The position numbers and the translations under genes are program-made. Shown here piece by piece: positions 3 to 60,943 of a stretch of DNA of 64,000 bases. The DNA comes from Escherichia phage LQ5, in the sequence record OR677401; one strand, written 5' to 3'. The stretch's first letter is position 1, and the number at the start of each line of letters is the position of its first letter. Under the pieces are notes generated by a model. That model was not told where the DNA came from. It ran no database searches and worked only from the letters and a program-made list of their open reading frames with translations.

Positions 3-479
3 GCTAAATGGTTTACAGAAACATTAAAGAAAGGAATTCGTGGGCACCAGGTATCTAAACCGTCTCCTGGTAAGCTTTATGCTTATATCTATGATGCCAA
101 ACATAAGGATACCCTACCATACTGGGACAAATATCCTTTAATAATTTATCTTGGGTTAGGTAAGCATAATTTAATGTACGGACTGAACTTACACTATATT
201 CCACCTAAAGCACGTCAGCAATTTCTGGAAGAATTGCTGAAGCAATACGCGAGTACGCCTACCATTACGAACTCGACTAAATTAAAAATCGATTGGAGTA
301 AGGTAAAAGGATTCGCTGGTGCAGACGTGATGATTAAGGCTTATATCCCTGGAAATATTAAGGGACCTTTAGTAGAGATAAAACCGTCTGATTGGGCTAA
401 TGTAATAGGATTACCACTTCAGCAATTTGTATCGAAAGGTAAGCGTTACTCAGCTCAGAAAGTTTGGAAGAAGGCATAA
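3..479 (+). CDS. 5'-truncated ORF entering from upstream of the window; by synteny possibly the C-terminal part of a gp2-like DNA end protector
   Basis: Open frame from window edge to TAA at 477-479; no start in window; sits upstream of gp3-like and gp1 homologs. Confidence 0.4.
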
Positions 480-1129
480 TGAATTACCAGAAAATATATT
501 CTTCATTAATTACACGTGCTCAAGGACGAGCACTATCCTGTTATACCGAATCTCATCATATTTTACCTAGATGTATGGGTGGAGGTGATGAATCTACAAA
601 CTTAGTTGATTTAACTCCTGAAGAACATTATTTAGCACATCAACTATTAGTTAAAATGCATCCAGGAAATCCTGGTTTAACTTTTGCAGCTATGACAATG
701 ACTCAAGGCCCTCGTCGTTCTAATAAGCTTTACGGCTGGCTTAAACGTAAGCATTCTGAGAATATCACGGCAACCCAAACAGGAAAGGTTTATTATAATA
801 ATGGCAAGAAGTGTATTAAGCTGTTTCCGGGTGAACCGGTTCCTGAAGGATTTGTAAAGGGCCGAGGATGGAGTCCTACAAAAGGAACCACTCATGATAG
901 GAATAATGGTCATTTTGCCAATAAAGAACTCCAAGCGGAGCTTTCTAAACGGAGATGGGATAAAGCCAGAAAGGAAACTTGTGAACAATTTGGTGTGGAT
1001 ACTATAGAAGAGGCCAAGGATATGGTTCGGGCATTTAAAGCTACATGCCACGAAAGATACTGGATAAAACCAACTATAGCCAAATGGCCTTTTATGACAC
1101 CAGTAAGACTACGTGAATTTATAAAATAA
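479..1129 (+). CDS. HNH homing endonuclease (Mob-like), free-standing
   Basis: ATG at 479 overlaps upstream stop; motif YTESHHILPRCMGGGDESTNLVDLTPEEHYLAH typical of phage HNH endonucleases; paralog of ORF 60287-60943. Confidence 0.8.
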   Translation: MNYQKIYSSLITRAQGRALSCYTESHHILPRCMGGGDESTNLVDLTPEEHYLAHQLLVKMHPGNPGLTFAAMTMTQGPRRSNKLYGWLKRKHSENITATQTGKVYYNNGKKCIKLFPGEPVPEGFVKGRGWSPTKGTTHDRNNGHFANKELQAELSKRRWDKARKETCEQFGVDTIEEAKDMVRAFKATCHERYWIKPTIAKWPFMTPVRLREFIK

Positions 1130-1211
1130 TCTATTATCCCAGCCAGTTATTGAATGGAACAGACCTAGGACCATTATACACTGTCCGGGACTTAAGCAAT
1201 ATAGGAACCCT

Positions 1212-1802
1212 ATGAACGGTTTATTTAACCAAACTAACACTACTAACTTTATCTTAGAGGTTAGTGACGCAGGAATGACGCAGGCATTCAAATTGAACGT
1301 ACAAGATGTAACACTACCGGGTATCCATATTCCGGTCTCAGACGTCCCAGGATCGACCCAGGGCATACATCGTGCTAAGCTGCCAGGTTCTACTGTAGAA
1401 TTCGACCCATTGATTGTGAACTTTCTTGTGGACCGTGAATTGAAATCGTGGCTTGACGTTTATAAGTGGATGTTGTCATTAAACAACTATGTAACCCATG
1501 ATTCAGAAGCCTGGCATCCTAAAGGTCAACCGGAAGCTATCACCCTCCACATCCTTGATAACAACAAACAGAAAATCGTAATGAGCATTCATTACTACGG
1601 CGGTTGGCCATCCGACCTCTCGGAAATCCAGTACTCTTATAAAGAGGATTCTGACCCGGCGATTATCGCCACAGCAACATTCAACTTCAAATCGTTTGCT
1701 GTAGAAATAGATGGTACAATAGTTACAGGTCGTCCACAAATTGATTCGTATGCCGAACAACGAGTGGCTCGTATGTCTATGCATCCATCTATGAGAAAAT
1801 AA
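1212..1802 (+). CDS. tail completion/sheath stabiliser gp3-like (synteny only)
   Basis: 196-aa ORF immediately upstream of gp1 homolog, stop overlaps gp1 start; true start may be internal Met (MTQAFK). Confidence 0.45.
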   Translation: MNGLFNQTNTTNFILEVSDAGMTQAFKLNVQDVTLPGIHIPVSDVPGSTQGIHRAKLPGSTVEFDPLIVNFLVDRELKSWLDVYKWMLSLNNYVTHDSEAWHPKGQPEAITLHILDNNKQKIVMSIHYYGGWPSDLSEIQYSYKEDSDPAIIATATFNFKSFAVEIDGTIVTGRPQIDSYAEQRVARMSMHPSMRK

Positions 1803-2563
1803 TGAAACTAATATCAATTGTAGGAATCAAACGTAGCGGTAAGGATACCGTTGCTAACTATGTAATCGAAAATATGGATTCGGTAAAATTTCAGCTCGCA
1901 GGTCCTATTAAAAAGTATCTGGCTGAAGCCTATGAATACATCTCTGATGACCCTGTATTCGACCGTAGTTACATGCCTAAACTAGATTTTAACTGTTTTG
2001 AAGGTATCGGTTACGACCGTGAAGAAATCATTCCTTTAAAACCATATGATGTGATTGATATCTTTGAAAATGCTATTGTCAAACTGAATAATATCCTTCC
2101 TATTCCAGGAATGGATGTTCGTACCGCATATCATTATGGTCTTACCCCAGTCCAGTATCTGTCTGAAGAAACAAAAGACCAACTGTTTGAAGTAATAAAT
2201 AAAAATAACAATTGGTCAGTACGTCGTCTCATGCAGACCCTTGGGACTGATATTATTGTTAACCAATTTGATAAGATGTATTGGGTTAAGTTGTTCGCTT
2301 TAGACTATTTTGATAAAATATACTCTGATGCGAAATACTATGTCGTACCTGATGTTCGTCAAACACACGAAATTGATTCGCTCAGAGCGATGGGTGCTAC
2401 GATTATTCATGTAGTTCGCGCTGAAACCGGTCAAGTACAAGACTCGCACATCACTGAAGCGGGTCTACCAATTTTACCTGGTGACGTTGTTGTTGAAAAT
2501 AACGGCACTCTTTCTGAACTATACACTACTATTGATAAATTATTAGGAAATAAAAATGTCTGA
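1802..2563 (+). CDS. 1: deoxynucleoside monophosphate kinase
   Basis: N-terminal P-loop GIKRSGKDT and recalled T4 gp1 blocks (WSVRRLMQ.LGTD, MYWVKLFALDY, HITEAGLPI). Confidence 0.9.
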   Translation: MKLISIVGIKRSGKDTVANYVIENMDSVKFQLAGPIKKYLAEAYEYISDDPVFDRSYMPKLDFNCFEGIGYDREEIIPLKPYDVIDIFENAIVKLNNILPIPGMDVRTAYHYGLTPVQYLSEETKDQLFEVINKNNNWSVRRLMQTLGTDIIVNQFDKMYWVKLFALDYFDKIYSDAKYYVVPDVRQTHEIDSLRAMGATIIHVVRAETGQVQDSHITEAGLPILPGDVVVENNGTLSELYTTIDKLLGNKNV

Positions 2564-2801
2564 ACAAACCGTTGAACAGAAACTGCAGTCTGAAATCGTT
2601 ATCCTTAAATCCCGTATCCTTGATACTCAGGACCATGTCCAGCGCGTTAAAGCTGATTGCGACCTCCTTACTAAAGTACTGGGTGAGATTGCTGCAGTAG
2701 TTGGCGTTACCGGTGATTCTGTTAAAATCGAAGACCTAGTTGAAGCCGTTAAAGCCCTGGTTCCAGAAGCTTCTGACGAAGAATATTCTGAAGAAGAATA
2801 A
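2556..2801 (+). CDS. 57A: tail-fibre assembly chaperone 57A
   Basis: 81 aa; N-terminus [22 protein letters not shown] matches recalled gp57A; position after gene 1. Confidence 0.8.
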
Positions 2802-3256
2802 TGAAAACCGAAGATTTTGCTCAAGGTCTATACGTTGCTGCAAAATTCTCTGAATTAACTTTAGATGCGCTGGAAAATCTTCAGCGCACTTTAAAGGTTC
2901 CTAATCCAGTTCCTCGTGAAAAATTCCATTCTACAATCTGCTATTCAAGAGTCAACGTTCCATACACCGTTGCATCCGGAAGTTTTGAAGTTGCTTCGGC
3001 CGGACATCTTGAAGTATGGAAACACGGTGATTCTCCTGTCCTGGTCTTGGTTCTCAATTCAGAGTATCTTAAATGCCGCCATCAGTATGCTCGTACCTTA
3101 GGTGCTACGCACGATTTTGATGATTACACCCCTCATATCACCCTGTCTTATAATGTGGGACCCCTTAGCTTTAGTGGAGATGTCCAGATTCCTGTTGTTT
3201 TAGACAGAGAATATAAAGAACCCTTGAAGCTCGACTGGGCTGAAGACCTAAAATAA
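2801..3256 (+). CDS. 57B: 57B-like 2H phosphoesterase (Acb1-type anti-CBASS cyclic-nucleotide phosphodiesterase)
   Basis: 151 aa; two H-x-T/S motifs ([16 protein letters not shown]) of the 2H fold; T4 57B position. Confidence 0.7.
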
Positions 3257-3267
3257 TTTAAAAAGGT

Positions 3268-60027: not shown

Positions 60028-60224
60028 GCAGGAACTCCGCTAAAGAATCCAATTATGCTTAATACGTGTTCCATTGTAACCGCTGGTAAAATTATCCCTT
60101 GGCTAGCGGCTACAGGGACTACTAGAAGATTCCAAAGGAATACGTCTAGCGCAAGAAAACCTAACATCATTTTCTTGTCTTTCTTTTCGGCCAATTTCCA
60201 GATTTGGTAAAAAATACTGCCCAT
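60024..60224 (-). CDS. antisense small membrane protein (66 aa)
   Basis: Only convincing minus-strand gene: AGGAGG 5 nt before ATG; T4-type late promoter TATAAATA upstream on minus strand. Confidence 0.55.
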   Translation of the reverse strand: MGSIFYQIWKLAEKKDKKMMLGFLALDVFLWNLLVVPVAASQGIILPAVTMEHVLSIIGFFSGVPA

Positions 60225-60245
60225 GTTATCCTCCTGTTAAATTAA

Positions 60246-60253
60246 TATTTATA
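60246..60253 (-). promoter_or_regulatory. T4-type late promoter TATAAATA (minus strand)
   Basis: Reverse complement of TATTTATA at 60246-60253, ~20 nt upstream of minus-strand gene. Confidence 0.5.
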
Positions 60254-60254
60254 A

Positions 60255-60281
60255 CTTGCTTTACAAATTAATGATACAATT
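60255..60281 (+). promoter_or_regulatory. MotA-type middle promoter (TGCTT box, 13 nt, TACAAT)
   Basis: TGCTT at 60257-60261, -10 TACAAT at 60275-60280. Confidence 0.45.
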
Positions 60282-60286
60282 ATCCC

Positions 60287-60943
60287 ATGAATTACGAAAA
60301 AATATACCAGGAATTAATATCTAAAGGAAAATTAAGAGGTTCTAAGCGGTCTTTATCATATTATACGGAAGAACACCATGTTATACCTAGATGTATGAAT
60401 GGTTCTGATGATAAAAACAATTTAGTTGCTTTATTGCCAAGAGAACACTTTGTAGCTCATAGGCTTTTAACAAAAATATATCCCGAAGTAAAAGGTCTAC
60501 ATTATGCTGTTAATTTAATGAGATATAATAAAGGAGTTAAATTAACTAGTAGAACTATAGCCACGTTAAGAGAAAATAACGCTAAAGCATTTTCAGGAAA
60601 AAATAACCCGATGTTTGGTAAACCTTCCTGGATTAGAGGGATGAAAACTCCTGAAGAAACTAAAGCCAAAATGCGCCTGGCTCATAAAGATAAAATTATA
60701 TCTGATGAAGCCAAGGCCAATATGAGTAAAGCTAGAAAAGGAAGATTTAGTGGTAAAGATTCCCCTAGATATGGTTTACCGAATCCTAGGCGTGGAGAAA
60801 TATGGAATAGTTACGATATGCTTTACGAATTATGGGTTTACAATAATAAACCTAAACGCACCAAATTTAATAAAATAGCTGTTGATAATGGATATCCTGA
60901 TATTTGTTATCGACGAATGATAGAAAACTTTAATAGGAAATAA
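60287..60943 (+). CDS. HNH homing endonuclease (Mob-like), free-standing
   Basis: YTEEHHVIPRCMNGSDDKNNLVALLPREHFVAH; paralog of 479-1129. Confidence 0.8.
   Translation: MNYEKIYQELISKGKLRGSKRSLSYYTEEHHVIPRCMNGSDDKNNLVALLPREHFVAHRLLTKIYPEVKGLHYAVNLMRYNKGVKLTSRTIATLRENNAKAFSGKNNPMFGKPSWIRGMKTPEETKAKMRLAHKDKIISDEAKANMSKARKGRFSGKDSPRYGLPNPRRGEIWNSYDMLYELWVYNNKPKRTKFNKIAVDNGYPDICYRRMIENFNRK

What the first reader, a model, noticed from the sequence alone, without database searches (positions are those of the whole stretch)
479..60943. Six free-standing homing-endonuclease ORFs with different regulatory contexts
Two paralogous HNH genes (479, 60287), three GIY-YIG genes (5288, 32242, 37816) and one unassigned NUMOD-rich ORF (43214) sit between conserved genes (gp2/gp3, the two tRNAs, 55/47, 45/44, 61/56). 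The 37816 and 60287 genes each have a TGCTT MotA-like box 13 nt from a -10. The 32242 gene has an ATAAATA late-like element with a hairpin over its RBS, and the 5288 gene has the same late-like element.
Basis: partly seen in the sequence, partly recalled or inferred. Interest (0 to 1): 0.5.

Follow-up and report, generated by a model that had tools for sequence, protein, structure and literature searches.

The report
Homing endonucleases and a resolvase swap
This stretch of a T4-like coliphage carries five ordinary mobile "homing endonuclease" genes, plus a sixth look-alike that exactly replaces the gene for the phage's DNA-branch-cutting enzyme (endonuclease VII) and probably now does that job.

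Summary
All six ORFs and the cited motifs are at the stated coordinates. The window is the early/middle region of a Dhakavirus (JS98-like T4 relative).

Five ORFs are typical free-standing homing-endonuclease genes:
- 479 and 60287 are HNH, Mob-like.
- 5288 is the T4 segB ortholog (76% aa).
- 37816 is GIY-YIG, Seg-like.

Each is present in only 3-7 of about 39 sequenced relatives, and empty or otherwise occupied sites exist. 479 and 60287 are flanked by sharply bounded divergent tracts in genes 2 and 56.

The "regulatory contexts" are mostly borrowed. The MotA-type promoters are the resident promoters of genes 47 and 56. They sit so close that the predicted transcript start is the endonuclease's own ATG.

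The sixth ORF (32242-33315) is not an insertion between genes. It replaces gene 49 (endonuclease VII) ORF-for-ORF and keeps gene 49's late promoter and hairpin leader. Every relative has gene 49 or this gene, never neither. Bp7, which carries it, has no gene 49 anywhere. Longer homologs carry Endo VII's C-terminal half.

Best reading: an endonuclease-derived GIY-YIG nuclease substituting for Endo VII. This is inferred, not shown, and was hinted at for RB16 in 2010.

The parts
479..1129 (+). HNH (Mob-type) free-standing homing-endonuclease gene, 216 aa. It has no promoter of its own, and its ATG overlaps the gene 2 stop (TAATGA).
   Evidence: PHROG 655, E 1e-56. It is a clean ~650-nt insertion at the gene 2 stop codon (the exact break is ambiguous within the repeated TAA) relative to JS98/WG01. 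Occupied in 10 records and empty in 43. dN/dS 0.08 against Kosakonia phage 305.
401..486 (.). Divergent patch at the 3' end of gene 2, next to the 479 endonuclease. Probably the co-converted tract and target region.
   Evidence: 22 mismatches here against empty-site phage WG01; 2 mismatches in 1-400 and 4 in 1101-1800.
5173..5246 (+). tRNA with CAU anticodon. ARAGORN calls it Met; T4 annotates the tRNA at this position as Ile. It flanks segB upstream.
5255..5293 (+). segB leader: late-promoter-like CATAAATA (5258-5265) inside a hairpin whose 3' arm covers the SD and AUG.
   Evidence: 100% identical to the T4 segB leader. Folds at -18.9 kcal/mol, z -4.3; only -5.4 kcal/mol when started just after the promoter element. 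The arrangement is described for T4 segB in PMC2988022.
5288..5953 (+). segB ortholog (GIY-YIG homing endonuclease, 221 aa).
   Evidence: 76% aa identity to T4 SegB over the full length. Same position, between tRNA(CAU) and tRNA-Arg. Pfam GIY-YIG 25.5 bits, above the cut-off. Only AnYang, IME540 and LHE83 among the dhakaviruses carry it; in MX01 the two tRNAs are 11 nt apart.
5959..6033 (+). tRNA-Arg (UCU), flanking segB downstream.
32203..32236 (+). Gene-49-type leader: late-promoter-like AATAAATA (32203-32210) and hairpin arms 32208-32218 / 32226-32236 that sequester the AAGGG SD.
   Evidence: Identical in gene-49 phages QL01 and JS98 and in Tequatrovirus G8 upstream of gene 49. Folds at -15 kcal/mol, z -3.9.
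32242..33315 (+). 357-aa GIY-YIG nuclease that occupies the gene 49 (endonuclease VII) slot. Putative replacement branch-resolving nuclease.
33316..33335 (+). The retained last 20 nt of gene 49 (TGAGGAAATCGCTTAAATGA). It supplies the SD and ATG of the next gene.
   Evidence: Alignment with QL01 and JS98.
37764..37809 (+). Resident expression signals of gene 47: terminator-like hairpin (37764-37783), MotA-box-like TTTGCTTTC (37784-37792) and extended -10 TGATAAAAT (37801-37809).
   Evidence: Also present in empty-site Bp7 and in JS98 ahead of 47.1/47.
37816..38670 (+). GIY-YIG Seg-type homing-endonuclease gene, 284 aa: catalytic domain, linker and helix-turn-helix. The ATG is 6 nt after the -10, and the stop overlaps the gene 47 ATG (ATGA).
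37818..37828 (.). Left copy of the 11-nt direct repeat GAAATACATTA that flanks the 37816 insertion. The right copy is at 38644-38654.
   Evidence: Empty-site Bp7 has a single copy.
38644..38654 (.). Right copy of the 11-nt direct repeat.
43214..43780 (+). Its ATG overlaps the gene 45 stop (TAATG). Its 3' end supplies a new SD, ATG (43773) and the first 10 codons of gene 44.
   Evidence: PHROG 314. hhalign against SegB 88%, E 3e-6. It replaces the 61-nt 45/44 spacer of JS98, which holds a hairpin and TATAAT. Occupied in 8 records; about 40 of the listed records are empty. Its C-terminal module is shared with the HNH gene 60287 (E 2e-7).
60255..60280 (+). Middle-promoter-like element ahead of 60287: MotA box CTTGCTTTA (60255-60263), an 11-nt spacer, and -10 TACAAT (60275-60280).
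   Evidence: An equivalent element (TTCGCTTTA-11-TATAAT) precedes gene 56 in empty-site QL01, and the window-type element is in Bp7, which lacks this gene.
60287..60943 (+). HNH (Mob-type) free-standing homing-endonuclease gene, 218 aa, with NUMOD3 repeats. Annotated mobE in IME08 and VR5.
   Evidence: PHROG 655, E 2e-54; NUMOD3 1e-6. Occupied in 9 records and most others empty; different endonuclease genes occupy the same intergenic region in Bp7/PSD2002 and AnYang/ABTNLsp5.
60929..61250 (.). Co-conversion-like tract covering the first ~300 nt of gene 56.
   Evidence: 43 mismatches against empty-site QL01, bounded by 0/1052 upstream and 0/550 downstream. The same tract is nearly identical to occupied IME08, whose outer flanks diverge.

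Best explanation
The window is the early/middle region of a Dhakavirus (JS98-like T4 relative). It holds five genuine free-standing homing-endonuclease genes and one gene that only looks like one.

The five. Two are HNH, Mob-type (479, 60287). Three are GIY-YIG, Seg-type (5288 = segB ortholog, 37816, 43214). They spread between co-infecting phages by cutting the endonuclease-less allele near the insertion site and being copied in during repair, dragging adjacent sequence with them. Tracts of this kind are seen in gene 2 and gene 56.

None except segB brings its own expression signals.
- 479 and 43214 are translationally coupled to genes 2 and 45 (TAATG).
- 37816 and 60287 sit directly behind the resident middle promoters of genes 47 and 56. 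Their AUG coincides with the predicted +1 and there is no Shine-Dalgarno, so expression is expected to be low (inferred).
- segB has the T4 segB leader: a late promoter inside an RBS-sequestering hairpin.

The sixth gene (32242-33315) is an exact ORF-for-ORF replacement of gene 49 (endonuclease VII). It keeps gene 49's late promoter and hairpin leader and the last 20 nt of gene 49. It is a GIY-YIG catalytic domain plus an endonuclease-like DNA-binding region, ending in a helix homologous to Endo VII residues 85-97. Longer metagenomic homologs retain the whole Endo VII C-terminal half (residues 84-157).

I infer that this protein is made late, like gp49, and performs gp49's job of cutting branched DNA before and during packaging.

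Shown: anatomy, homology, distribution, purifying selection. Inferred: nuclease activity, branch specificity, timing of expression, leaderless starts.

For: Mobility: each gene is present in a different small subset of about 39 dhakavirus genomes, and no relative has all six. The insertion junctions are clean. The divergent tracts next to 479 and 60287 are sharply bounded. dN/dS is 0-0.19.

Borrowed signals: the promoter elements are also present in empty-site relatives. The TGCTT-N13-TAnnnT pattern is enriched. The rpbA promoter in the same window has the same box/-10 type and a normal ~30-nt leader.

The gene 49 swap:
- The breakpoints lie at the ORF edges and the leader is identical.
- 42 dhakavirus records have gp49 at 96.8% identity or more, and the 9 records (7 phages) missing from that list are exactly the carriers of the GIY-YIG gene.
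- All 39 dhakaviruses seen at the gene 2/3 locus have one or the other.
- The whole Bp7 genome has no gp49 homolog.
- The family sits in the gene 49 slot in S16, phiR1-RT, Ac42, RB16 and a metagenomic contig. Each has its own xATAAATA element and SD-covering hairpin, and Bp7's hairpin is re-paired with different bases.
- Long forms carry Pfam Endonuc-dimeris. They match gp49 residues 86-157 at 46% identity, E 3e-18, and T4 Endo VII PDB chains at E 1e-14.
- dN/dS against Bp7 is 0.028 at dS 0.49.
- Petrov et al. 2010 proposed that 'putative alternative nucleases' circumvent Endo VII in RB16 and Aeromonas phage 65 (PMC2993671). Both phages carry homologs.
Against: No biochemical or genetic test of any of the six proteins is possible here.

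For 32242:
- The window protein lacks the Endo VII dimerisation domain and keeps only one helix, similar to gp49 at E 0.2-0.8 on its own.
- Absence of gp49 was checked over a whole genome only for Bp7, whose record contains many split genes, including this one.
- I could not confirm that RB16p243 is the 'RB16ORF270c' of the review, nor that 65p046 is its '65ORF061w'.

For 37816: the flanks show no co-conversion tract and the insertion is bounded by 11-nt direct repeats, so empty sites may be deletions rather than never-invaded alleles.

Transcript starts are predicted from consensus geometry only.
Confidence: 0.6

Rival explanations
1. All six are selfish homing endonucleases. ORF 32242 is a Seg-type endonuclease whose target is gene 49 itself. 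It homed onto gene 49 and deleted it, and the carrier phages survive because branch resolution is dispensable for them or is supplied by another nuclease (terminase, host RuvC, or an unrecognised phage enzyme).
For: Its architecture resembles a homing endonuclease: a GIY-YIG domain plus an extended DNA-binding region with weak I-HmuI similarity. Its distribution within Dhakavirus is sporadic, 7 of about 39 genomes. A late promoter with an RBS hairpin is also the classic endonuclease arrangement (I-TevI, segB; PMC2988022). [quoted passage not shown]
Against: There is never an empty site and never both genes. No co-conversion tract is seen at the borders, unlike 479 and 60287. The gene is full-length at the same slot in every sampled phage of several other genera, at 55-76% aa identity. 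Purifying selection is very strong (dN/dS 0.028 at dS 0.49). Homologs fused to the Endo VII C-terminal half sit at the gene 49 slot. Gene 49 is described as essential in T4 (PMC2993671).
Confidence: 0.27
2. The presence/absence patterns reflect vertical inheritance with repeated deletion, not active homing. The ORFs are old residents, possibly domesticated or decaying, and the 'empty sites' are losses.
For: The 37816 insertion is bounded by 11-nt direct repeats, and the empty allele in Bp7 has one copy with otherwise near-identical flanks. The QL01 empty 61/56 site contains ATGAATT...AGGAAAAAATATAATG, which resembles the joined ends of the endonuclease ORF (my reading). The 479-type gene sits at the same site in a different genus (Kosakonia phage 305) with ORF and flanks diverged to similar degrees.
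Against: The divergent tracts in gene 2 and gene 56 are sharply bounded inside otherwise identical sequence: 0 of 1052 mismatches on one side of 60287. Recombinational import with the endonuclease explains this, and deletion does not. The six genes are distributed independently among near-identical genomes. segB with its tRNA flanks is 90% identical to tequatroviruses, which suggests exchange between genera. All ORFs are intact and under purifying selection.
Confidence: 0.1
3. ORF 32242 has a different late function unrelated to branch resolution, such as a defence or counter-defence nuclease. Gene 49's role would then be covered by an unidentified gene that happens to be linked to it.
Against: The strict either/or relation with gene 49 at one locus, with flanks identical up to the ORF edges, leaves no room for a linked second gene. 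The homologs fused to the Endo VII C-terminal half also argue against it.
Confidence: 0.03

Closest known systems
T4 SegB (GIY-YIG free-standing homing endonuclease in the tRNA cluster)
   Same: ORF 5288 has the same length (221 aa), 76% aa identity and the same position between tRNA(CAU) and tRNA-Arg. Its 5' leader, with the predicted late promoter and hairpin, is identical (PMC2988022).
   Different: Here the tRNA cluster has only two tRNAs. Within Dhakavirus the gene is rare (3 genomes). Its DNA is closer to PP01-type tequatroviruses (90%) than to T4 (82%).
T4 Mob proteins (MobA-E; HNH free-standing endonucleases), especially mobE with its UAAUGA coupling to nrdA
   Same: 479 and 60287 have the H-N-H motif, are promoter-less cassettes, and 479 shows the same UAAUGA stop/start overlap described for T4 mobE. 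IME08 and VR5 annotate the 60287 homolog as mobE.
   Different: The insertion sites differ (gene 2/3 and 61/56 rather than nrdA/nrdB). I did not test orthology to a particular T4 Mob protein. The two genes share only the catalytic 78 aa and have unrelated DNA-binding tails.
T4 SegF and gene 56 (intronless homing with co-conversion of gene 56)
   Same: 60287 lies next to gene 56, and a ~300-nt tract of gene 56 travels with it. This matches the logic of SegF, whose target is gene 56 (PMC2988022 Table 1).
   Different: 60287 is an HNH enzyme upstream of gene 56. SegF is GIY-YIG-type and lies on the soc side. The cleavage site is unknown.
T4 endonuclease VII (gp49), the Holliday-junction and branch resolvase needed for packaging
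   Same: ORF 32242 has the same genomic slot, the same late promoter and hairpin leader, and the same downstream junction. Its C-terminal helix is homologous to gp49 residues 85-97, and long-form relatives keep gp49 residues 84-157.
   Different: The catalytic domain is GIY-YIG, not the H-N-H/zinc domain (no PF02945). It is 357 aa against 157 aa. The window protein lacks the dimerisation domain.
'Putative alternative nucleases' replacing Endo VII in RB16 (RB16ORF270c) and Aeromonas phage 65 (65ORF061w), from Petrov et al. 2010
   Same: RB16 carries a 57%-identical full-length homolog between nrdC and nrdD, and phage 65 carries a partial homolog. The replacement idea is the same.
   Different: That proposal was one sentence in a review. 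Here the replacement is polymorphic within one genus, with exact breakpoints, and it is linked to Endo VII by fusion homologs. The identity of the named ORFs with the homologs I found is inferred from position (for RB16) and from homology to the window protein, not verified.
I-TevI (GIY-YIG intron endonuclease: late promoter with RBS-sequestering hairpin; catalytic domain, linker and HTH)
   Different: These genes are free-standing, not intron-encoded. No autorepression operator was examined.
SLX1 / ANKLE1 (eukaryotic GIY-YIG structure-selective nucleases)
   Different: There is no specific sequence relationship, and the partners and domains differ. This is an analogy only.

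Membership tests
T4 SegB | GIY-YIG catalytic domain | tested here: met
   Pfam PF01541, 25.5 bits against a cut-off of 22.6.
T4 SegB | Full-length sequence orthology to T4 SegB | tested here: met
   76% identity over 221/221 aa, E 3e-125.
T4 SegB | Location between tRNA(CAU, 'Ile') and tRNA-Arg, with the late promoter and hairpin leader | tested here: met
T4 SegB | Cleaves the tRNA gene region of segB-less phages and is preferentially inherited | not testable with these tools
   Needs an in vitro cleavage assay or mixed infection.
HNH (Mob-type) free-standing homing endonuclease (ORFs 479, 60287) | H-N-H catalytic motif | tested here: inconclusive
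   The motif HH..P..N..EH..AH is visible in both. Pfam HNH gives 18.4 bits, below the 21.4 cut-off, for 60287, and nothing for 479. PHROG 655 'homing endonuclease' matches at E 1e-54 to 1e-56.
HNH (Mob-type) free-standing homing endonuclease (ORFs 479, 60287) | Own ORF between host genes, with empty sites in close relatives | tested here: met
HNH (Mob-type) free-standing homing endonuclease (ORFs 479, 60287) | Co-conversion of flanking host sequence | tested here: met
   Bounded divergent tracts at 401-486 and 60929-61250. These are a footprint consistent with co-conversion, not a direct observation of it.
HNH (Mob-type) free-standing homing endonuclease (ORFs 479, 60287) | Site-specific cleavage of the endonuclease-less allele | not testable with these tools
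   Needs biochemistry.
GIY-YIG (Seg-type) free-standing homing endonuclease (ORFs 37816, 43214) | GIY-YIG catalytic domain by curated profile | tested here: not met
   For 37816, PF01541 gives 15.4 bits, below the 22.6 cut-off. For 43214 there is no hit even at E <= 10.
GIY-YIG (Seg-type) free-standing homing endonuclease (ORFs 37816, 43214) | Homology to a proven Seg protein, and a GIY-YIG fold | tested here: met
GIY-YIG (Seg-type) free-standing homing endonuclease (ORFs 37816, 43214) | Empty sites in close relatives | tested here: met
Free-standing homing endonuclease (ORF 32242) | Inserted between host genes, with empty sites in relatives | tested here: not met
   It replaces the gene 49 ORF. 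All 39 dhakaviruses have either gene 49 or this gene, and none has neither.
Free-standing homing endonuclease (ORF 32242) | Co-conversion tract at the borders | tested here: not met
   The flanks match gene-49 phage QL01 at 0-3 mismatches per 50 nt right up to both ORF edges.
Free-standing homing endonuclease (ORF 32242) | Nuclease domain of a homing-endonuclease family | tested here: met
Endonuclease VII (gp49) family (ORF 32242) | Endonuclease_7 H-N-H/zinc catalytic domain (PF02945) | tested here: not met
   No hit in the window protein or in the long forms. JS98 gp49 hits at 3e-20.
Endonuclease VII (gp49) family (ORF 32242) | C-terminal dimerisation domain (PF09124) | tested here: not met
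   Absent from the 357-aa protein, which ends at the helix equivalent to gp49 residues 85-97. Present in long-form homologs P0023-25 (E 1e-11 to 5e-16; alignment).
Endonuclease VII (gp49) family (ORF 32242) | Genomic slot and late/hairpin regulation of gene 49 | tested here: met
Endonuclease VII (gp49) family (ORF 32242) | Cleaves Holliday junctions and branched DNA; required for packaging | not testable with these tools
   Needs a junction-cleavage assay and a knockout or complementation test.

The most novel reading that the evidence does not exclude
The 357-aa GIY-YIG protein is a true branch- and Holliday-junction-resolving packaging nuclease. It arose when a Seg-type homing-endonuclease module was grafted onto the C-terminal half of endonuclease VII, and the short forms later lost the dimerisation domain. 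Within Dhakavirus the H-N-H resolvase (gp49) and the GIY-YIG enzyme are then interchangeable alleles of one locus under one leader. That would be a natural in-situ non-orthologous displacement of an essential enzyme, and the first phage GIY-YIG resolvase.
Probability: 0.45. Interest if true: 0.65.

Novelty: new member of a known kind. Interest (0 to 1): 0.42.

Why it matters
The five homing-endonuclease genes are ordinary for a T4-type phage. They do give concrete, testable target regions (the last ~85 nt of gene 2 and the first ~300 nt of gene 56). They also show how such genes are wedged behind resident promoters with essentially no leader.

The gene 49 replacement is the interesting part.
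- If the GIY-YIG protein resolves DNA branches, a selfish-endonuclease scaffold has been recruited to an essential morphogenetic function.
- Two unrelated catalytic folds would then be exchangeable at one locus in nature.
- Near-isogenic natural pairs are available for direct experiments, for example QL01 (gene 49) against this phage, PSD9 or E33 (GIY-YIG gene).
- Database annotation would need correcting. This family is currently labelled 'homing endonuclease' or 'hypothetical', and its carrier phages appear to lack a resolvase.

Tried and rejected
1. The ORF list suggested that gene 2 was truncated (ORF 174-479). Translation shows that gene 2 simply runs off the window start.
2. I asked whether the MotA-like promoters and the late/hairpin element came in with the endonucleases. 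This is rejected, because they are present in relatives without the endonuclease.
3. I asked whether carriers of the GIY-YIG gene have gene 49 elsewhere. This is rejected for Bp7 by tblastn over all 168,066 bp. The best hit, E 0.8, is the GIY-YIG ORF's own C-terminus.
5. Single-sequence hhalign of 37816 against SegB was uninformative (E 0.06, probability 0.9%). A 40-sequence profile resolved it.
6. Pfam at E <= 10 gave no GIY-YIG hit for 43214, and its homolog search found only four close relatives.
7. Literature searches for the RB16 and phage 65 ORF names, and for Dhakavirus homing endonucleases, found no paper describing the gene 49 swap beyond the 2010 review sentence.
8. tblastn with 14 endonuclease queries (the six, seven from Bp7, and T4 SegB) found no further endonuclease paralogs or remnants in the window.
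9. The profile search of 1.84 billion representatives gave 1,320 hits, almost all to the N-terminal SegE-like domain alone. Only a handful of clusters at 50% identity are full length.

Full report
**What the window is.** All sizeable ORFs run on the + strand. The best DNA matches, at 92-97% identity, are JS98-like coliphages of the genus Dhakavirus: Bp7, E33, MX01, JS10, IME08 and QL01. No record in the collection covers more than 80% of the first 20 kb. The gene order is that of the T4 early/middle region read in the direction of transcription: 2, 3, 1, 57A/B ... tRNAs ... e ... nrdC ... (49) ... nrdH ... 55 ... 47, 46, 45, 44, 62, regA, 43 ... uvsX, 40, 41 ... 61, 56.

**Checking the observation.**
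- All six hit PHROG homing-endonuclease families.
- 479 and 60287 share 51% identity, but only over the first 78 residues, which hold the H-N-H motif. Their C-terminal halves are unrelated.
- The C-terminal ~65 residues of 60287 resemble those of 43214 (E 2e-7). DNA-binding modules have therefore been shuffled between catalytic families.
- 5288 passes Pfam GIY-YIG, and 32242 hits SegE_GIY-YIG at 5e-34.
- The 'unassigned' 43214 aligns to the SegB catalytic region (hhalign 88%, E 3e-6), so it is a fourth GIY-YIG gene.
TGCTT-N13-TAnnnT is over-represented (13 against 3.6 expected). Exact TATAAATA is not.

**Are they mobile?** I searched each gene together with its flanks against 50,697 phage records. 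Every gene is present in a different small subset of the roughly 39 distinct dhakavirus genomes.

| Gene | Carriers | Other states seen |
|---|---|---|
| 479 | QL01, ABTNLS3, E33, C6, SHP1, 04086, dhabil; also Kosakonia phage 305 at 76% nt | 43 records have a clean empty site |
| segB (5288) | AnYang, IME540, LHE83 | Empty in MX01; other inserts elsewhere |
| 32242 | PSD9, 04086, E33, ABTNLS3, FB, Bp7, 005 | Gene 49 in all others |
| 37816 | KIT01, SHP1, 005 | A variant with a different C-terminus in IME08/QL01 |
| 43214 | SHP1, MX01, Bp7, PSD2002, 005 | About 40 listed records empty |
| 60287 | E33, ABTNLS3, IME08, UGJNEcP3/4, ESCO10, VR5 | Most others empty |

*Junctions.* They are exact.
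- 479 is a clean ~650-nt insertion at the gene 2 stop codon (JS98 reads GCATAATAATCT).
- segB separates two tRNAs that are 11 nt apart in MX01.
- 43214 replaces the 61-nt 45/44 spacer and supplies a new start for gene 44.

*Flanking divergence.* Mismatch profiles show footprints typical of homing.
- Against empty-site WG01, the window has 2 mismatches in 1-400 but 22 in the last 86 nt of gene 2.
- Against empty-site QL01, it is identical for 1,052 nt upstream of 60287, differs at 43 positions in the first ~320 nt of gene 56, and is then identical again.
- That same tract matches occupied IME08, whose outer flanks diverge.
- 37816 shows no such tract and is bounded by an 11-nt direct repeat. 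Its empty sites may therefore be precise deletions.

All ORFs are under purifying selection, with dN/dS 0-0.19.

**Regulatory contexts.**
- *segB.* The 5' leader is base-for-base that of T4. CATAAATA sits inside a hairpin (-18.9 kcal/mol, z -4.3) whose 3' arm covers the SD and AUG. A transcript starting just after the promoter element keeps only a weak stem. This is the arrangement reviewed for T4 segB (PMC2988022).
- *479 and 43214.* Neither has signals of its own. Each overlaps the upstream stop codon (TAATG), the arrangement discussed for T4 mobE as translational coupling.
- *37816 and 60287.* Both lie behind good middle-promoter look-alikes: TTTGCTTTC-8 nt-TGATAAAAT (11 nt to the TAAAAT hexamer) and CTTGCTTTA-11-TACAAT.
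  - These are resident promoters. The first is present in Bp7 (empty site) and in JS98 ahead of 47.1/47. An equivalent of the second precedes gene 56 in QL01, and the window-type version is in Bp7, which lacks this gene.
  - In both cases the ATG lies 6 nt after the -10 hexamer, so the predicted +1 is the A of the ATG, and there is no Shine-Dalgarno.
  - The rpbA promoter in the same window has the same box/-10 type and a normal ~30-nt leader.
  - A terminator-like hairpin lies immediately upstream of the 37816 promoter.
  - I infer either leaderless, inefficient translation or dependence on rare read-through. This fits the review's remark that half of the T4 free-standing endonucleases lack a recognisable translation-initiation region. 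Relatives encode motA and asiA.

**The sixth gene is different.**

*It sits in the gene 49 slot.* Aligning the 32242 region with JS98 and QL01 shows that it occupies the gene 49 (endonuclease VII) slot exactly.
- Homology runs to the end of the hairpin, ...GGTAAGGGT, a few nucleotides before the start codon.
- It resumes at the last 20 nt of gene 49, TGAGGAAATCGCTTAAATGA, which hold the SD and ATG of the next gene.
The same sequence precedes gene 49 in Tequatrovirus G8.
- RBS sequestration of this type in T4 late genes is reviewed in PMC2988022, which cites the gene 49 study of Barth et al. My recollection of that study's details is from memory.

*Either gene 49 or this gene, never neither.*
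- A tblastn with JS98 gp49 finds 42 dhakavirus records at 96.8% identity or more. The nine records (seven phages) missing from that list are exactly the carriers of the GIY-YIG gene.
- All 39 dhakaviruses seen at the gene 2/3 locus have one or the other.
- I fetched the complete Bp7 genome and found no gp49 homolog.
- The flanks are identical to those of gene-49 phage QL01 up to both ORF edges. Downstream haplotypes are not linked to the allele: the window resembles QL01, and Bp7 resembles JS98.

*The protein family.*
- Full-length homologs (355-365 aa, 55-76% identity) occur in Gelderlandvirus (S16 and relatives), Tegunavirus (phiR1-RT), Acinetobacter phage Ac42, RB16, Cronobacter and Klebsiella phages, and Aeromonas avDM5.
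- In S16, phiR1-RT, Ac42, RB16 and a metagenomic contig it lies in the gene 49 slot, between nrdC/49.x and nrdD/nrdH.
- Each has its own xATAAATA element 35-47 nt upstream, followed by a hairpin over the SD, with a different sequence in each case. In Bp7 the hairpin is re-paired with different bases.
- Three metagenomic long forms (427-499 aa) combine the same GIY-YIG and middle region with Pfam Endonuc-dimeris. P0024 residues 359-430 are 46% identical to gp49 residues 86-157 (E 3e-18) and match the T4 Endo VII crystal-structure sequences at E 1e-14.
- The 357-aa forms stop at the helix EWLESYITYLKS, which aligns with gp49 EWLENLLVYLKSD.
- Between the two dhakavirus allele lineages, dS is 0.49 but dN/dS is 0.028.

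*Prior literature.* Petrov et al. [quoted passage not shown] Both phages carry homologs of this gene. I found no paper that goes further.

**Interpretation.** Five of the six are ordinary Seg/Mob-type free-standing homing endonucleases that borrow resident expression signals.

The sixth is best read as an endonuclease-derived GIY-YIG nuclease that has taken over the locus, the regulation and, by inference, the function of endonuclease VII. The main rival is that it is a selfish endonuclease which homed onto gene 49. That reading is weakened by five observations:
- the strict either/or pattern;
- the absence of a co-conversion tract;
- its presence, full-length and in the same slot, in every sampled phage of several other genera;
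- the strong purifying selection;
- the homologs fused to Endo VII.

Only biochemistry or genetics can settle the matter. The window protein lacks the Endo VII dimerisation domain, and absence of gp49 was verified genome-wide only in Bp7, whose record is error-prone.

**Verdict.** The endonuclease set is a new member of a well-known kind. segB is already known, and homologs of the others are annotated as homing endonucleases or left as hypothetical in relatives' records. The gene 49 replacement raises the interest to moderate.

Noticed in passing
window 60024-60224 (- strand), promoter 60246-60253 (- strand): This is the only convergent gene seen in the stretches examined. It is a 66-aa hydrophobic ORF (MGSIFYQIWKLAEKK...) with a canonical late promoter TATAAATA and an AGGAGG SD on the minus strand, between genes 61 and 56. 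It is conserved in QL01 and Bp7 as 'hypothetical' and has no Pfam hit. Two different endonuclease insertion points flank it: Bp7 has one between gene 61 and the ORF, and the window has one between the ORF and gene 56.
   Followed up: partly
window 43773-43802: Gene 44 (clamp loader) starts inside the 43214 endonuclease cassette. Its SD, ATG and first 10 codons differ from the 4 codons of endonuclease-less JS98, so the insertion has rewritten the N-terminus of an essential replication protein.
   Followed up: partly
window 37816-38309 versus L018 (IME08) 967-1460: IME08/QL01-type phages carry a variant of the 37816 endonuclease. The N-terminal 165 aa are the same, but the C-terminal DNA-binding part is different and shorter. 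This is domain swapping within one insertion site.
   Followed up: partly
window 60701-60895 and 43517-43714: A ~65-aa C-terminal module is shared between an HNH gene (60287) and a GIY-YIG gene (43214), at 32% identity, E 2e-7. DNA-binding modules are exchanged across catalytic families.
   Followed up: no
window 5173-5246: ARAGORN calls this tRNA Met (CAT). It sits where T4 annotates tRNA-Ile (CAU, presumably lysidine-modified). AnYang has a different tRNA sequence at the same place upstream of an identical segB leader.
   Followed up: no
L003 (Kosakonia phage 305, Kanagawavirus) 671-1321: The 479-type HNH gene sits at the identical gene 2/gene 3 junction in a different genus. ORF and flanks are diverged to similar degrees (76% nt; dN/dS 0.08), suggesting long persistence at this site.
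   Followed up: partly
L013-L016 (Bp7, NC_019500): The Bp7 record has many split genes (motA, arn.3, rIIA.1, nrdB, gp46, gp20, and the GIY-YIG gene with two compensating frameshifts). These are most likely sequencing errors, so it is a poor reference for pseudogene calls. It also carries at least six further endonuclease genes outside the region homologous to the window, plus one on the minus strand next to gene 46 that the window lacks.
   Followed up: partly
window 5171-6154 versus PP01-type tequatroviruses: The tRNA(CAU)-segB-tRNA-Arg block is about 90% identical to PP01-type Tequatrovirus genomes but only 82% to T4. Most dhakaviruses lack segB. This suggests import of the whole cassette from another genus.
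   Followed up: no
one search hit list; Synechococcus phages: The SegE-like GIY-YIG domain occurs alone as ~130-150-aa proteins in very many phages (1,320 representative clusters). In cyanophage records it is annotated 'NAD synthetase', which looks like an annotation error.
   Followed up: no
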